Numbered from the stretch's first letter, positions 33,001 to 39,000 are shown. The stretch: DNA of 49,226 bases from Escherichia coli (GCF_003334765.1 NZ_QOWT01000030.1), one strand, 5' to 3'. Numbers are program-made.

Positions 33001-36000
33001 CCGGTCGTTTTCATGATGTAGGGTCGTTCACCCTCGCGGTAATAAACAGCAGCATATTTATCACCATATATAATAACCAGTTCAGCCCGGGATGTTACAG
33101 CGTTCCCTTTCCTTTCGAGGAAAACATTTCGCAAATTTACAGTTGGCGTTATCTGACATACAGAAAGCGGACGAGTATATTTTCTCCCGCTGCGAAAATG
33201 ACAGGTCAGCATAACCTCTCTGTCGTCATTTCCAGCCCACAGCGTCCAGTCGGTAATTTTATGAGTCTTATTTTCACCGTCAACACAAATCGTGACCATA
33301 TTCTTACTCAGAAATTATCATTTAACTTACGGAAAATTGTTAAGGCACTCCCGATATTAGCTCCGGAGGATTTTCCACAACTCCGGGACTGTTAACATAT
33401 TTCTGCCTGCCATATATACATTGAATTTAGTCATAACAGTCAATACCAGAATTACAGGAATGCGATGCCGATACGCTGGTTATTGAATACTGGTAGCCCC
33501 TGAGCACTAATTCATCACGATACTCTGTATTTACTGTTTTCACTGCTTTTTACAACCATTCCCCCAGGTAAAATGCTGCTCCTCCGGTGATGGCTGTGTC
33601 AGAAACTGCCATCCCGGAATAGCCACGCTGACCGCCAGCAATGCCGCACAGACACCAGCCACAAACGGTTTCAGAAACGTGGGCGGGGATTTCTGAAGGG
33701 AGGGTGACTGCTCCGCCTGCACTTTCCCCTTGCGATTATCAAGGCTCAGTGCATCCAGACGCACCGCGCCATTTGCCGCAAGCAGCCCTTCCCGGTTATC
33801 CACGCTTCCCGGCAGACTCAGCGAAAAATCCCCTGTTCCCGTCTGAATCAGACTGCCTTTACGATTTGACAGGCTTTGTGCCGATATCTGCAGTGTGTCG
33901 GCATTTATCGTACCGCCATTACTGCTGAACTGCCCGGCAGTCCGGGCGGAAAGCGTATCGGCACTCAGTTGCGCATTCTGTGTAGACAGATTTCCACTGG
34001 TTGCATTCAGCTCAGTATGTTGTCCCTGTATCCGGCTGTTACCTAAATCCAGCCCCTGCTCAATGTCCCGTAAATCCAGCAGAGAACCTTCGTGTGCCGG
34101 GAATGAGGAATACAACTGAATATAGTCATCACTGTCCGGTGTCAGACGCACATGTCGCACAACACCGGGAATAATAACCAGCCGGAGGATACCGCTTTTT
34201 AAATCCTGCGAAGGTGCCAGAACACGGGTGGTGACATAACCATGATCGACCAGACGGTTCTGCAATGTACTCATCAGCAGATTAATTCCTTTCGCCCCCA
34301 GGCAATGCCCGACCGCCCCGTTGGCGATTTTTTGTAAAGGCAGCCAGTGTGGTAACGCATCAGCCCCCTTCAGTTCCGTCTGTTTAATCTGAAAACAGGG
34401 CGTTTCAACAGGAAATTAATCTTATGGGCAAAAGAGCCAGGTGCAGAAAGGCGAACATCAGGGGCTGAAGGCGTCAGTTGTTGCTCAAGGGCTTCCTGAC
34501 GCTGCTGCTGAATGATAAATGCTTCATCTCCGCTACGCCGGACATCCGCTGCCTGAAGAGATAAAGGCGATAATAAAGCAGACATCAGTGTCAGTGACAG
34601 CAAGGACGGACAGCGCCGGAATAAGCTTTGTTCCTCAGTCCTCTCGTTCCTGCAACATAATTTTCCAGTCAAACGAAAAACCTTTTATTCATGTCATACC
34701 AACAATCACCAGCCTCCTGACGATACCTCCCACCATGTTTTGCGATGGCACGCTACCGCCCTTCCGGTATTTACCCGCATCAACCGGTACCAGAATGCTG
34801 AGTAACAAACCAGCCAGAATTGACTTAATTTTGATCATTATAGAATAATGATCTGAACTACAGCAACATGACAGATTTATCGATCGATATAACACAAATG
34901 AACAGTTCTTTATTCTGACTAATATCGCAAAAACAGCACATTACAAAATTTATAACCATAATTACTGGAAAAGTGCAGAAAATTATTCCACTGAATGCTT
35001 TTAATACAGTTGGTTAGCTTAAAAAATAGCAATTTTTGATTTCAGTCATTGAAAGTTGCAATGTTTGACGATTCAACAGCATTTAAGTGAGTTTCAGGAT
35101 ATGGGAAGGACATGAAAGGAGGAGCGCAATAAAATACACAGGAAGAAGGGGAAAATGTTTCGTAAAAACAGAAAATTAACAGCGCACATCAGGAAACGCA
35201 GTCTCCTGATTCAGTGCTATCACATGAAAATTTAGTTAACTGTTACCGTACTAAAATTTATGTCAGAAGATGTTCCATTACCGAAAGTCAATCAGCGATA
35301 CAAAGACGATCATGGTGCGCTTGTCACCCTGACCAGTGTTGAGGAAACCCGGGTGGTGTTTATGCAGGACGGCTATCCGCATCCCTGCATGCGACCGATG
35401 TACAACTTTCTGGGAAAATTCAAACCCGAACCCCGGGAAGAAAAAGAATAAAACGAAATCCCTGCCGGCAATCACACTACCTGATAGCAGCATAATCCAC
35501 TTATTAATTCTCATCCCCGGAGACAAGCCCAGAAAACCACTCCGGGTGTTCACTGTATGCCGTGTTCAGCGCATCCCTGGAAACGTTTATATAAAAGCTG
35601 TCCTGCAATTTGCGGGTAACAACTTCTGCCAGGCGATTCCGGTTATCCACCAGTCCGGCATAACCTCTCTCTGCCAGCCACTCATTCAGTTCATGTTCCA
35701 GAGACAGATTGATAATATCATAATCGGACCTTGCCATTCCCGTTTCCTTAGCACATGTTTTCAGGCACGGGGATAAAGTATAAAGAATGTCATACTGCTG
35801 CTGCCAGAGCAATATTCCCCCTGATGGTTGTATCAGAGATGGTATGCCGGTACTTTGCGGGTTGTTCCCGTCAGGTTATCGTGCACCTCCACGGTCGTGG
35901 TCACCACCGGCATTCCGGCCTTTCTCAGCCTCAGAACATCAGCCGCAATACGCTGACTGCCAAACCAGAACAGGCCGTCCAGTGCAGTCACCAGTAAACC

Positions 36001-39000
36001 CGCCTCCAGTGCATACTTCAGCCGTTCACGGGGCGCTTTCACTTCCCGGGCAACCTGCTGATATGGCAATGATGTGTTTTCATTCCCAACCACGCGACGA
36101 ATACGGTGAGACAGATGATACCGGTATGTATCCGGCACACCAGAAAGGCTGGCCTTCAGGCTGTACACGCAGCCAAACCGTTTATCGTTAAACACCACAT
36201 TTTTCTGGCTGATGCCCCATTCTTCACGCAGCGCGGCAATCAATTGCGGTGTACGGGTAAGCAGCAAGCGAAAAGGCAGTTCAAAACTGGTGACGTAATC
36301 CACATTCAGCAGTGCAATACGCAACCGTTCTTCTGGCCCGGCCTCTGTCTGCCGGCACTCCTCCAGAACATCCTGCCACTGCCGGCGAAGACGGGGGGAT
36401 TCGTTCCGTTCTGTAAAACAGTATTTATCCGCCAGATAGTCAATTCGTGTACGCATACTGAAAGGAATTCCGTATAAAGATTCAGCAGACAAAACTTTAT
36501 CAGCCAGTAAAAATTAACGGAAGCATTGATATTCCTCCCGACAATCACCGGATGATTGTTGCAATAACCTGCGACATAAAGGACTGAACAGCCGTTTTTA
36601 ACGCCACGTATTGCCCTGATGAACCAGGCCGGGCCACCCGAAAACATCTTTCCACCCGGCATTGTCCGCCAGCACTTATCACCGACCAGGTCTGTTGCAG
36701 TAAATCCACCAGTTGCGCACATTCTTCATCAGCCATGACGCCGACTCGCGGATGGCAAATACTCGTCTGGCTGAGCAGCAACAGACATCGTATCTGTGCT
36801 CCTTCATGTTGTTCCCGCAACCAGCGTAATACCACCGGCGCTGATGGGCTGACCGTGTGATTATGCTCCGTAATACGTTCGTGTACCCGTCGGTGAAAGG
36901 AACTACAAAATGTCTGAATCTGTTGACCATAGATTCCTTCTGCCGAATAGAGCGTGAAGTGAAATGCCAACAGATTTGGCCAGTGGTCCACCGCCTGCTG
37001 AACAAAACGCCGGATTTCCCCCGGCTCTGAAATTAAGGCTTCGGTTATTTGCACGAAATGTTCCTTTTCAACCCCTGTTGAATTTTGTCAAGCCGGTGCA
37101 GACACAGTAAAGCGCGCATCAACACCTGAAAGGTACGATACAAACACAAGTTACAAACAATAAGAACGGAAGGACAATTAATCAGTGAGGAATAATAACT
37201 AAATTAACCAAAAGAATGTTACTGACAATACTACCAATACTTAAATAGCAATATATTAATTAATGTAAGAACAGATGCCCGGTAAGACATATACACAATA
37301 CATCCACAAACACACTCTTTTCATTAAATCAATCACCTGATTAAACCATGAAAGTGTGATGTAAGTCAAAATTACTGATACTATCAATTGATAATGATTA
37401 TCTCTATCATTATCGTGAAATTCGAGAATGAAAGGAGAAGTAGTCATTATAAGCCTTTTATAAATCGTCATCATCATAGTAAAGTAGAACACTTTTTATA
37501 TGAGTTACTATATGAAAATATACTGGACAAGAAAACGTATTCCTGAACTTTCAGCACTTCCACCTTCATTAAGAAAGAAAAATTTTACTGACGCATATAA
37601 TGCAGCATCTTCTCATATCGAATACTGGATAGGTGCTGGCGTCTCATTTATCTCGATGATGATTTTATCCAGAGTATATGACTTTCTTTTACCCGCCCAA
37701 GATACTTTCCCGGGTGATATCATCAGAAGTTTATGTGTTGTGTGTCCATCCATATTAATCTGGTTTCAGTTTTCGGTATATGTCATGAGGAAATATTACA
37801 GACATATTCTGGTGCGAGGAAAAGAAACCGAAACCATTTCAGAAAGGTTGATACGTGAGGCTGATACACGAGAATATGAACTATGGCGTCCGGTCCGTCG
37901 CTTTTTCTCCATTGTTTTCCTCATTGTTCTATTAGGTTGCATTCATTCACTGATAACAACTATAAAATAAAAGTTATGGCTGTTCTGATACAGGAAAATA
38001 AACGTTCATTCTATGGTTACCTCTTCCTGTTATATAGAAGAATTTTAAACGACAAGTAAGGGAATATAAATGAAAATAACAAAAAATAAAAATGCAACTA
38101 TAAAAAACAGTCATCAGTCGGCTGCTTTTCAATGTTTACCTTATCATTTTCTGGTAATGCTGCCAACTTACTGATTTAGTGTATGATGGTGATTTTAAGG
38201 TGCTTGCGTGGCTTCCATTTCCATCAGATGTCCTTCCTGCTCCGCTACTGAAGGCGTGGTGCGTAACGGCAAAAGCACTGCCGGACATCAGCGCTATCTC
38301 TGCTCTCACTGCCGTAAAACATGGCAACTGCAGTTCACTTACACCGCTTCTCAACCCGGTACGCACCAGAAAATCATTGATATGGCCATGAATGGCGTTG
38401 GATGCCGGGCAACTGCCCGCATTATGGGCGTTGGCCTCAACACGATTTTACGTCACTTAAAAAACTCAGGCCGCAGTCGGTAACCTCGCGCATACAGCCG
38501 GGCAGTGACGTCATCGTCTGCGCGGAAATGGACGAACAGTGGGGCTATGTCGGGGCTAAATCGCGCCAGCGCTGGCTGTTTTACGCGTATGACAGTCTCC
38601 GGAAGACGGTTGTTGCGCACGTATTCGGTGAACGCACGATGGCGACGCTGGGGCGTCTTATGAGCCTGCTGTCGGCCTTTGAGGTCGTGGTATGGATGAC
38701 GGATGGCTGGCCGCTGTATGAATCACGCCTGAAGGGAAAGCTGCACGTTATCAGCAAGCGTTACACTCAGCGCATTGAGCGACATAATCTGAATCTGAGA
38801 CAACATCTGGCAAGGCTGGGACGGAAGTCACTGTCGTTCTCAAAATCGGTGGAGCTGCATGACAAGGTCATCGGGCATTATCTGAACATAAAACACTATC
38901 AGTAAGTTGGAGTCATTACCTGAGAATAATACCTCCTGGGTAAGTGAGCAGATACTTTCAGCGCCTCCGAAAGATGTAAATATTCGACTTGGAGTCGGTT

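What the first reader, a model, noticed from the sequence alone, without database searches (positions are those of the whole stretch)
35504..37054. Three-gene module of unknown function in the island backbone
Three tightly spaced minus-strand ORFs (169, 219 and 102 aa; gaps of 52 and 20 nt) form an apparent operon. The first has a YfjJ/YagK-like core (LRWLREQ...CLLLL). Such CP4-type backbone modules are widespread but functionally undefined.
Basis: inference. Interest (0 to 1): 0.35.

Follow-up and report, generated by a model that had tools for sequence, protein, structure and literature searches.

The report
Uncharacterised E. coli island backbone genes
Three real but already catalogued genes of unknown function from the conserved backbone of an E. 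coli genomic island: a Rep-like protein that has lost its catalytic residues, a self-contained winged-helix DNA-binding protein and a small acidic protein, which look like two units placed side by side rather than one dedicated operon.

Summary
The likely starts make them 169, 207 and 77 aa, with gaps of 88 and 95 nt, not 219 and 102 aa with gaps of 52 and 20 nt.

- **ORF1** belongs to the small UCP030791 family (PF27752). No family member keeps the two histidines or the tyrosine that are invariant in canonical members, so it is probably not a nickase.
- **ORF2** is the NCBIfam ECs1377 family. It is a basic protein with a confident predicted structure whose only structural matches are winged-helix DNA-binding domains. 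It has its own conserved extended -10 promoter in the ORF1-ORF2 spacer. In other Enterobacterales it occurs alone.
- **ORF3** is a small acidic protein almost confined to Escherichia.

The trio is collinear in many E. coli islands, normally preceded by Rep-like genes and AlpA and followed by cdiBA. Elsewhere ORF1 travels with the AlpA/Rep-like cluster and never with ORF2. In this window a 3.8-kb insertion has cut ORF1 off from AlpA.

No functional study was found. The finding is ordinary and the genes are already catalogued.

The parts
36545..37054 (-). ORF1, 169 aa (GTG start, AAGGA 7 nt upstream). UCP030791 family (PF27752). A diverged YagK/YfjJ (Rep-like) domain that lacks the His-x-His and Tyr motifs.
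   Evidence: RefSeq WP_001167434.1.
35833..36456 (-). ORF2, 207 aa (ATG 36456; the maximal ORF reaches TTG 36492). ECs1377 family, basic (pI 9.6). Predicted winged-helix DNA-binding protein.
   Evidence: RefSeq WP_001260386.1.
36494..36523 (-). Promoter-like element of ORF2 in the ORF1-ORF2 spacer. It has an extended -10 TGATAAAGT (36494-36502) and a conserved CTTCCGTT box (36516-36523).
   Evidence: TGnTAAART lies 38-56 nt upstream of the start in 39 of 79 loci from many genera; base-shuffled controls gave a mean of 0.4 and a maximum of 2. Sequence read.
35504..35737 (-). ORF3, 77 aa (ATG 35737 with AAGGA Shine-Dalgarno; the maximal ORF reaches 35812). Acidic (pI 4.6), no family, essentially confined to Escherichia.
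   Evidence: RefSeq WP_000124179.1.
35260..35451 (+). Convergent DUF4222 gene (63 aa). It travels with ORF2-ORF3 in Escherichia islands.
37176..40940 (.). About 3.8 kb inserted between ORF1 and its usual upstream partners. It holds a membrane protein gene, a CPBP fragment, IS1, an alpha/beta-hydrolase fragment and a glycosyltransferase gene. It is bounded by imperfect 27-nt direct repeats at 37149-37175 and 40941-40967.
41178..41375 (-). AlpA/excisionase-like HTH gene (65 aa). In intact islands it lies about 265 nt upstream of ORF1.
41441..41711 (-). Frameshifted remnant of a 190-aa protein that is itself YagK/YfjJ-like, with EYH in place of HYH.
33539..34585 (-). Truncated POTRA/ShlB-type (CdiB-like) gene downstream. 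In the commonest E. coli layout the trio is followed by intact cdiB-cdiA.

Best explanation
The three genes are part of the conserved backbone of a CP4-57/P4-integrase-type E. coli genomic island. This one is the tellurite-resistance/Iha island that in related O157:H7 genomes lies beside a tRNA-Ser gene. They are best read as two adjacent units rather than one dedicated operon.

**Unit 1: ORF1 (UCP030791).** It is the last conserved gene of a cluster of the form Rep-like YagK/YfjJ, AlpA, small Zn-ribbon genes, then UCP030791. It keeps the Rep-like domain but has lost the His-x-His and Tyr residues that are invariant in canonical members. I infer that it is a non-catalytic, probably DNA-binding or regulatory paralogue that acts alongside the canonical Rep-like protein and AlpA in controlling the island. 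In this window a 3.8-kb insertion has separated it from AlpA.

**Unit 2: ORF2 (ECs1377 family) plus ORF3.** ORF2 is a basic protein built from winged-helix elements. I infer that it binds DNA, most simply as a transcriptional regulator expressed from its own conserved extended -10 promoter. ORF3 is a small acidic protein specific to Escherichia. It is probably co-transcribed with ORF2 and could modulate it.

**Shown:** the gene models, family assignments, loss of motifs, fold of ORF2, promoter conservation, genomic contexts and natural dispensability. **Inferred:** DNA binding, a regulatory role, co-transcription of ORF2 and ORF3, and any interaction between the proteins.
For: **Context**
- Island identity and backbone context.

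**ORF1**
- Homologues carry PF27752 UCP030791.
- hhalign of its family against canonical YagK/YfjJ gives probability 96.6%, E 5.3e-10 over 148 columns.
- PF11726 hits 3 of 19 family members at E<=0.001.
- None of 21 family members has His/His/Tyr at the canonical invariant positions, and the C-terminal Y-x-x-K tail is missing.
- Canonical neighbours carry PF11726 and weak PF23343 REP_ORF2-G2P hits.
- An upstream Rep-like gene plus AlpA is present in 6 of 7 independent contexts, with variable cargo downstream.

**ORF2**
- NF052300 scores 324.8 bits against a cut-off of 190.
- The AF2 model has pLDDT 93.9.
- pI is 9.6.
- A conserved TGnTAAART is present in 39 of 79 loci, against 0.4 expected.
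- It stands alone in other genera.

**ORF3**
- Strong Shine-Dalgarno sequence, dN/dS 0.03-0.31, and a taxonomically narrow distribution.

**Arrangement and dispensability**
- The trio is collinear with identical 88/95-nt gaps in the commonest E. coli layout.
- The insertion that severs ORF1 from AlpA.
- O157:H7 lineage II strain FRIK 920 carries a natural 10.8-kb deletion that begins at the 3' end of ECs1377 (PMC1890555).
Against: - No experiment on any of the three proteins was found.
- The ORF1 structure model is poor (pLDDT 52.8) and its fold search gave nothing significant. The Rep-like fold therefore rests on sequence profiles only.
- That canonical YagK/YfjJ proteins are HUH nickases is itself an inference from motifs and weak Pfam REP hits, not a demonstrated activity.
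- The trio is tightly collinear in at least 768 complete E. coli genomes with fixed spacing, so a functional link within Escherichia cannot be excluded.
- The simple consensus scan found no sigma-70 promoter or terminator separating the genes.
- The promoter motif is absent, in that exact form, from 40 of 79 loci.
Confidence: 0.55

Rival explanations
1. The three genes form one co-transcribed functional module. Their products would work together, for example as a Rep-like DNA-binding protein, a winged-helix partner and a small adaptor that control replication or excision of the island.
For: Same strand, short gaps, and no terminator or consensus promoter found between them. The order and the 88/95-nt spacing are identical in the commonest E. 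coli layout and in at least 768 complete genomes. All three are under purifying selection.
Against: ORF2 has a conserved promoter of its own and is solitary in about 75 of 80 loci from other genera. UCP030791 relatives are never followed by ECs1377 outside Escherichia. ProQ/FinO plus another gene are inserted between ORF1 and ORF2 in strain 439. E. albertii has ORF2 and ORF3 without ORF1. Nissle has ORF1 with a truncated ORF2.
Confidence: 0.2
2. ORF1 is an active rolling-circle/HUH-type initiator (an inovirus Gp2-like nickase) that nicks an origin on the island, with ORF2 as its origin-binding helper.
For: Some databases name close homologues 'inovirus Gp2 family protein' or 'YagK/YfjJ domain-containing protein'. 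Homology to the YagK/YfjJ domain is real.
Against: The positions of both conserved histidines and of the conserved tyrosine are substituted in all 21 family members examined, and the C-terminal Y-x-x-K...GC tail is absent. The conserved Arg-x-Asp of the first strand is also lost.
Confidence: 0.05
3. The genes are a toxin-antitoxin or anti-phage defence system, or part of one, carried as island cargo.
For: The surrounding islands carry many defence-type genes and TA genes: CbtA/YeeU, AAA_15/21, RVT, BREX and CDI. A small acidic protein next to a basic DNA-binding protein superficially resembles an antitoxin/regulator pair.
Against: PADLOC has no significant match; the only hit is E 0.025, to a homing-endonuclease model, for ORF3. 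ORF2 occurs alone in most genera. ORF3 has a common 15-aa in-frame deletion variant. The region is lost naturally without replacement.
Confidence: 0.08
4. The genes are decaying remnants with no present function in this island.
For: ORF1 is cut off from its AlpA cluster by an insertion, and the neighbouring genes (the 190-aa paralogue, CdiB, CPBP, hydrolase) are pseudogenes here. The region is deleted in O157:H7 lineage II strain FRIK 920. Truncated copies are common.
Against: All three reading frames are intact and 99.9% identical across many EHEC genomes. dN/dS is well below 1 against diverged copies. ORF2 keeps its promoter elements.
Confidence: 0.12

Closest known systems
YagK/YfjJ C-terminal domain proteins (Pfam PF11726, 'inovirus Gp2 family'; E. 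coli K-12 YfjJ of CP4-57 and YagK of CP4-6)
   Same: ORF1's family aligns with them over about 148 columns (hhalign E 5.3e-10). Shared features are the LRW/LRY-W-E segment, the hydrophobic strand that follows it and the LL..AW helix. Both sit in the same kind of island next to AlpA.
   Different: ORF1 is shorter. It lacks the R-x-D, H-Y-H and Y-x-x-K...GC motifs that are invariant in canonical members. The Pfam model does not detect it, and it is filed in a separate family, UCP030791/PF27752.
NCBIfam NF052300 'ECs1377 family protein' / phrog_24243
   Same: ORF2 is a full-length member: 324.8 bits against a cut-off of 190, and 1e-56 to the PHROG. The family is named after the Sakai O157:H7 copy of this very gene.
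   Different: Nothing differs. The family has no assigned function. Only one record in the phage collection holds a relative.
Winged-helix transcription regulators (ArsR/MarR-type; Stf76 of pSSVx)
   Different: Only one domain-sized piece matches. The 207-aa architecture as a whole has no counterpart in the PDB (no Foldseek hit at E<=0.001; no sequence hit). DNA binding was not tested.
AlpA/Vis-centred control regions of P4-type integrative elements and satellites (CP4-57, SRL PAI, PICI/PICMI-like islands)
   Same: The layout is the same: integrase-type island, DUF3987/YfjI, Rep-like YfjJ, AlpA, then unnamed small genes, then cargo.
   Different: No capsid-redirecting or packaging genes were seen near the trio. 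The roles of the genes downstream of AlpA are unknown in all of these elements. The window copy is disrupted.

Membership tests
YagK/YfjJ C-terminal domain (PF11726) | Significant match of the protein to the Pfam model | tested here: not met
   No Pfam hit for ORF1 even at E<=10. Only 1 of 19 close homologues reaches E 0.1.
YagK/YfjJ C-terminal domain (PF11726) | Homology at profile level to canonical members | tested here: met
   hhalign of A3 against A4: probability 96.6%, E 5.3e-10, 148 columns. PF11726 hits 3 of 19 distant family members at E<=0.001, best 6.1e-10.
YagK/YfjJ C-terminal domain (PF11726) | Invariant His-x-His on the central strand (HUH-like) and R-x-D on the first strand | tested here: not met
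   The positions equivalent to H109/H111 are Q87/R89 in ORF1. None of 21 UCP030791 members has His at either position. R36/D38 are also not kept.
YagK/YfjJ C-terminal domain (PF11726) | C-terminal Y-x-x-K-x-x-x-K ... G-C tail | tested here: not met
   Y187 aligns with S158. ORF1 ends at residue 169 and has no counterpart of K190/K194/GC.
UCP030791 family (Pfam PF27752; PGAP name) | Match to the family model or name | tested here: met
   All 120 listed homologues (74-96% identical) carry precomputed PF27752. One search gives the family's name. RefSeq names the protein at the 99.9%-identical locus (WP_001167434.1) 'UCP030791 family putative phage-derived protein'. The model itself is not in the Pfam or NCBIfam copies I could run.
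UCP030791 family (Pfam PF27752; PGAP name) | Position behind a Rep-like gene and AlpA in an integrative island | tested here: inconclusive
   True in 6 of 7 contexts of relatives. In the window the AlpA-like gene lies 4.1 kb away because of an insertion.
ECs1377 family (NCBIfam NF052300, equivalog) | Whole-protein score above the curated cut-off, over the full length | tested here: met
   324.8 bits against a cut-off of 190, profile positions 1-190 of 190.
Winged-helix DNA-binding proteins | Helix-turn-helix plus beta-hairpin wing fold | tested here: met
Winged-helix DNA-binding proteins | Sequence-specific DNA binding | not testable with these tools
   Needs EMSA or ChIP. Only the basic pI of 9.6 is indirect support.
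Single operon (co-transcribed module) | No internal promoter; the genes co-occur wherever any one of them occurs | tested here: not met
   A conserved extended -10 lies upstream of ORF2. ORF2 is solitary in other genera. ORF1 relatives occur without ORF2. Genes are inserted between ORF1 and ORF2 in strain 439. Transcription itself was not measured.
Known anti-phage defence or toxin-antitoxin systems | Match to PADLOC models | tested here: not met
   No family for ORF1 or ORF2. ORF3 has only E 0.025 to a homing-endonuclease model.

The most novel reading that the evidence does not exclude
UCP030791 proteins such as ORF1 are catalytically dead paralogues of the Rep-like YagK/YfjJ proteins. CP4-57-type islands keep them at the boundary between the AlpA control cluster and the cargo region, where they could bind the same DNA sites as the active paralogue to regulate or block replication or excision of the island. 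Separately, ECs1377 would be an autonomous double winged-helix regulator that moves between chromosomal sites as a promoter-plus-gene unit of about 0.7 kb, without recognisable mobility genes.
Probability: 0.25. Interest if true: 0.45.

Novelty: already known. Interest (0 to 1): 0.22.

Why it matters
Parts of this stretch are present in more than half of complete E. coli genomes, and nobody knows what these genes do. If the readings here hold, two things follow. Islands of this type carry a series of Rep-like paralogues in different states of motif loss. One of the 'backbone' genes is really an independent DNA-binding gene with its own promoter. That would help anyone dissecting how AlpA-controlled islands are regulated, and it would stop the trio being treated as one module in co-occurrence screens. 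It does not open a new kind of system.

Tried and rejected
- **Direct searches for ORF1 and ORF3.** Pfam, NCBIfam, PHROG and PADLOC gave nothing usable.
- **BLASTP of ORF1 against K-12 YfjJ.** Nothing.
- **AF2 of ORF1 on a shallow alignment.** It gave a poor model (pLDDT 52.8). Its Foldseek search gave only non-significant ferredoxin-like hits, including IS200/IS608 transposases at E 0.04-0.2. I do not use these as evidence.
- **PDB sequence searches.** Profiles of ORF1, ORF2 and canonical YagK/YfjJ, and the ORF3 sequence, found nothing.
- **Phage collection.** No relative of ORF1 and a single record for ORF2, so 'phage-derived' is not supported by phage genomes.
- **Conserved neighbours of ORF2.** Across 80 loci none was found.
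- **Known RNA family in the region.** None was found within the three-gene region.
- **Simple promoter/terminator scan.** It found nothing convincing on the minus strand between the genes. The ORF2 promoter emerged only from cross-genus comparison.
- **Literature searches.** Searches by locus tag, protein accession, family name and Pfam number found no functional work.
- **Rejected readings.** An active HUH nickase, because the motifs are absent. A TA or defence system, because there is no model match and the genes are separable. A housekeeping function, because no such homology exists.
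Full report
**Observation.** The window has three minus-strand ORFs at 36545-37054 (169 aa, GTG), 35833-36492 (219 aa, TTG) and 35504-35812 (102 aa, TTG), separated by 52 and 20 nt, exactly as reported. 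Those are maximal ORFs. RefSeq annotation of DNA that is 99.9% identical calls proteins of 169, 207 and 77 aa (WP_001167434.1, WP_001260386.1, WP_000124179.1). The shorter starts are better supported for four reasons.
- The ATG at 35737 follows AAGGA at the right distance.
- The NCBIfam model for ORF2 begins at residue 28 of the 219-aa version.
- ORF2 homologues are 207-213 aa long.
- The TTG at 36492 lies 2 nt after a conserved -10 element.

With these starts the gaps are 88 and 95 nt.

**The genes are real.** Each has hundreds of homologues. Pairwise dN/dS against diverged copies is 0.32-0.41 for ORF1, 0.11-0.20 for intact copies of ORF2 and 0.03-0.31 for ORF3.

**Setting.** The stretch lies in the tellurite-resistance/Iha island of EHEC-type E. 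coli (SpLE1/OI-43/48 type). In O157:H7 strain PV15-279 the same genes lie between the ter/iha region and the usual backbone of DUF932, antirestriction, JAB/RadC, DUF987, YeeU and CbtA genes, ending at a tRNA-Ser gene. Part of the 2.1-kb query occurs in 2957 of 5426 complete E. coli genomes, with a median of two places per genome. At least 80% of it occurs in 768 genomes.

**ORF1: family.** Pfam, NCBIfam, PHROG and PADLOC do not hit this protein, and BLASTP against K-12 YfjJ finds nothing. Its close homologues carry a precomputed hit to PF27752, whose name is UCP030791, and the newest RefSeq annotation uses that name. A profile search of 1.84 billion representative proteins found only 64 clusters at E<=0.001, so the family is small.

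**ORF1: relation to YagK/YfjJ.** Full-length distant members (22-31% identical) share motifs such as QQAVDHYPRL, PPTLLRWLWE, RMLLLFN and LL..AW. A profile of the family aligns with a small profile of canonical YagK/YfjJ proteins (K-12 YfjJ and YagK plus two island copies) at 96.6% probability, E 5.3e-10, over 148 columns. PF11726 hits 3 of 19 family members at E<=0.001.

**ORF1: loss of motifs.** The four canonical proteins share invariant R-x-D, W..E, H-x-H and Y-x-x-K-x-x-x-K...GC positions. Their relatives also carry weak hits to PF23343 REP_ORF2-G2P. From established knowledge of HUH rolling-circle initiators, this is the pattern expected of a nickase; that canonical members are nickases is my inference and has not been shown. 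In ORF1 the two histidines correspond to Q87 and R89 and the tyrosine to S158, and the tail is missing. None of 21 UCP030791 members has His, His or Tyr at these positions. ORF1 is thus most likely a non-catalytic derivative. The AF2 model made from the shallow alignment is poor (pLDDT 52.8) and its fold search is uninformative.

**ORF2 is an independent gene.** A scan of one genome per species returned 80 loci in Citrobacter, Kosakonia, Serratia, Enterobacter, Klebsiella, Rahnella, Erwinia and other genera, at 58-98% identity. HMMs for ORF1, ORF3, canonical YagK/YfjJ, AlpA and DUF4222 found such neighbours only in E. albertii, in one Citrobacter locus and in two Serratia oryzae loci, one of them a weak hit. 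Elsewhere the neighbours are unrelated. In Klebsiella they are a cytochrome bd-type oxidase and an EAL phosphodiesterase. In Serratia they are siderophore and ABC transporter genes. In some Citrobacter loci the neighbour is a tRNA-like sequence.

**ORF2: promoter.** Homology between the solitary copies stops at the stop codon and begins about 90 nt upstream. There, 39 of 79 loci, including the window, have TGnTAAART 38-56 nt before the start. Base-shuffled controls gave a mean of 0.4 and a maximum of 2. The motif is usually preceded at promoter spacing by CTTCCGGT. In the window these elements are TGATAAAGT at 36494-36502 and CTTCCGTT at 36516-36523, both inside the ORF1-ORF2 spacer.

**ORF3.** It encodes a 77-aa acidic protein (pI 4.6) with no family or structural match. 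It is almost confined to E. coli and its close relatives. The most abundant variant lacks 15 internal residues and is 62 aa long. It accompanies ORF2 and the convergent DUF4222 gene in Escherichia, even where ORF1 is absent or ORF2 is truncated.

**How the pieces are arranged elsewhere.**
- The commonest E. coli layout is: DUF3987/YfjI, a 188-aa Rep-like protein, a 190-aa protein, AlpA, UCP030791, ECs1377, ORF3, then cdiB-cdiA. The 88- and 95-nt gaps are the same as in the window.
- The 190-aa protein is itself YagK/YfjJ-like, with EYH in place of HYH (hhalign E 2.6e-6). Intact islands therefore carry three paralogues with different degrees of motif loss.
- Distant UCP030791 members also sit behind a Rep-like gene, AlpA and DUF7828/Zn-ribbon genes. 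They are followed by variable cargo: BREX, IS elements, luxI/luxR and DUF2913. One context lacks the upstream genes.
- In strain 439 a ProQ/FinO gene and a small ORF lie between ORF1 and ORF2.
- In Nissle 1917, ORF1 is followed by a truncated ORF2.

**Disruption in this window.** Similarity to intact islands runs from 35448 to 37195 and resumes at 40952. About 3.8 kb has therefore been inserted between ORF1 and the AlpA-like gene (41178-41375) and the frameshifted 190-aa paralogue (41441-41711). The insert holds a membrane protein gene, a CPBP fragment, IS1, a hydrolase fragment and a glycosyltransferase gene. It is flanked by imperfect 27-nt direct repeats. The same left junction occurs in Nissle.

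**Interpretation.** The trio is a genuine, recurrent piece of Escherichia island backbone, but it is best read as two juxtaposed units. The first is the terminal, motif-less Rep-like gene of the AlpA cluster. The second is an autonomous winged-helix gene with its small Escherichia-specific companion. The functional statements (DNA binding, regulation, no catalysis) are inferences.

**Literature and dispensability.** No paper in the library reports a function for these proteins or for YfjJ/YagK. The SRL island table lists the equivalent genes as 'no similarity'. A comparative hybridisation study shows that O157:H7 lineage II strain FRIK 920 lacks 10.8 kb beginning at the 3' end of ECs1377, so the region is dispensable (PMC1890555).

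**Verdict.** The genes are already catalogued and their function is unknown, so the finding is of low interest.

Noticed in passing
window 44146-44219 (-): Full-length match to the EHEC small RNA Esr41 (Rfam RF02676, 103.4 bits against a gathering score of 102), about 1.9 kb upstream of the iha gene.
   Followed up: no
window 37149-37175 and 40941-40967: Imperfect 27-nt direct repeats (81% identical) bracket a 3.8-kb insertion that separates ORF1 from the AlpA-like gene. E. coli Nissle 1917 has the same left junction, where it leads into microcin genes.
   Followed up: partly
window 41441-41711 (-); intact copy at L005 10196-10768 (-): The 190-aa 'hypothetical protein' upstream of AlpA is also YagK/YfjJ-like (hhalign E 2.6e-6), with EYH in place of HYH. 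Intact islands therefore carry three tandem Rep-like paralogues with graded loss of motifs. The window copy is frameshifted.
   Followed up: partly
window 33539-34585 (-): A truncated POTRA/ShlB-type gene. In the commonest E. coli layout the trio is immediately followed by intact cdiB-cdiA contact-dependent inhibition genes, so this is a CDI remnant.
   Followed up: partly
window 35260-35451 (+): The convergent DUF4222 gene gives dN/dS of about 0.8-2.6 against diverged copies, but from very few substitutions. Unlike its three neighbours it shows no clear sign of purifying selection.
   Followed up: no
L009, L011, L019, L024 (Citrobacter), just after the ORF2 stop codon: Solitary ECs1377 homologues lie 50-90 nt from a conserved sequence that looks like a tRNA gene (not checked with ARAGORN). 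Other genera have the gene in unrelated chromosomal contexts, with homology limited to the promoter plus the coding region. How a single gene spreads in this way is unexplained.
   Followed up: partly
window 35504-35737 (-); variants P0313, P0331: The most widespread form of ORF3 is a 62-aa variant with a 15-residue in-frame deletion. Other variants carry compensated frameshifts (P0272, P0276). The middle of the protein seems to tolerate a good deal of change.
   Followed up: no
window 25619-25735 (+): ALIL pseudoknot (Rfam RF01497), the frameshift signal of an IS3-family element.
   Followed up: no
window 28262-33299 (-): An 893-aa AAA-domain protein lies next to a PAPS-reductase-like gene. 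In a related strain the latter is paired with an IbrB-like gene and a PerC regulator. In some related genomes these genes are pseudogenes.
   Followed up: no
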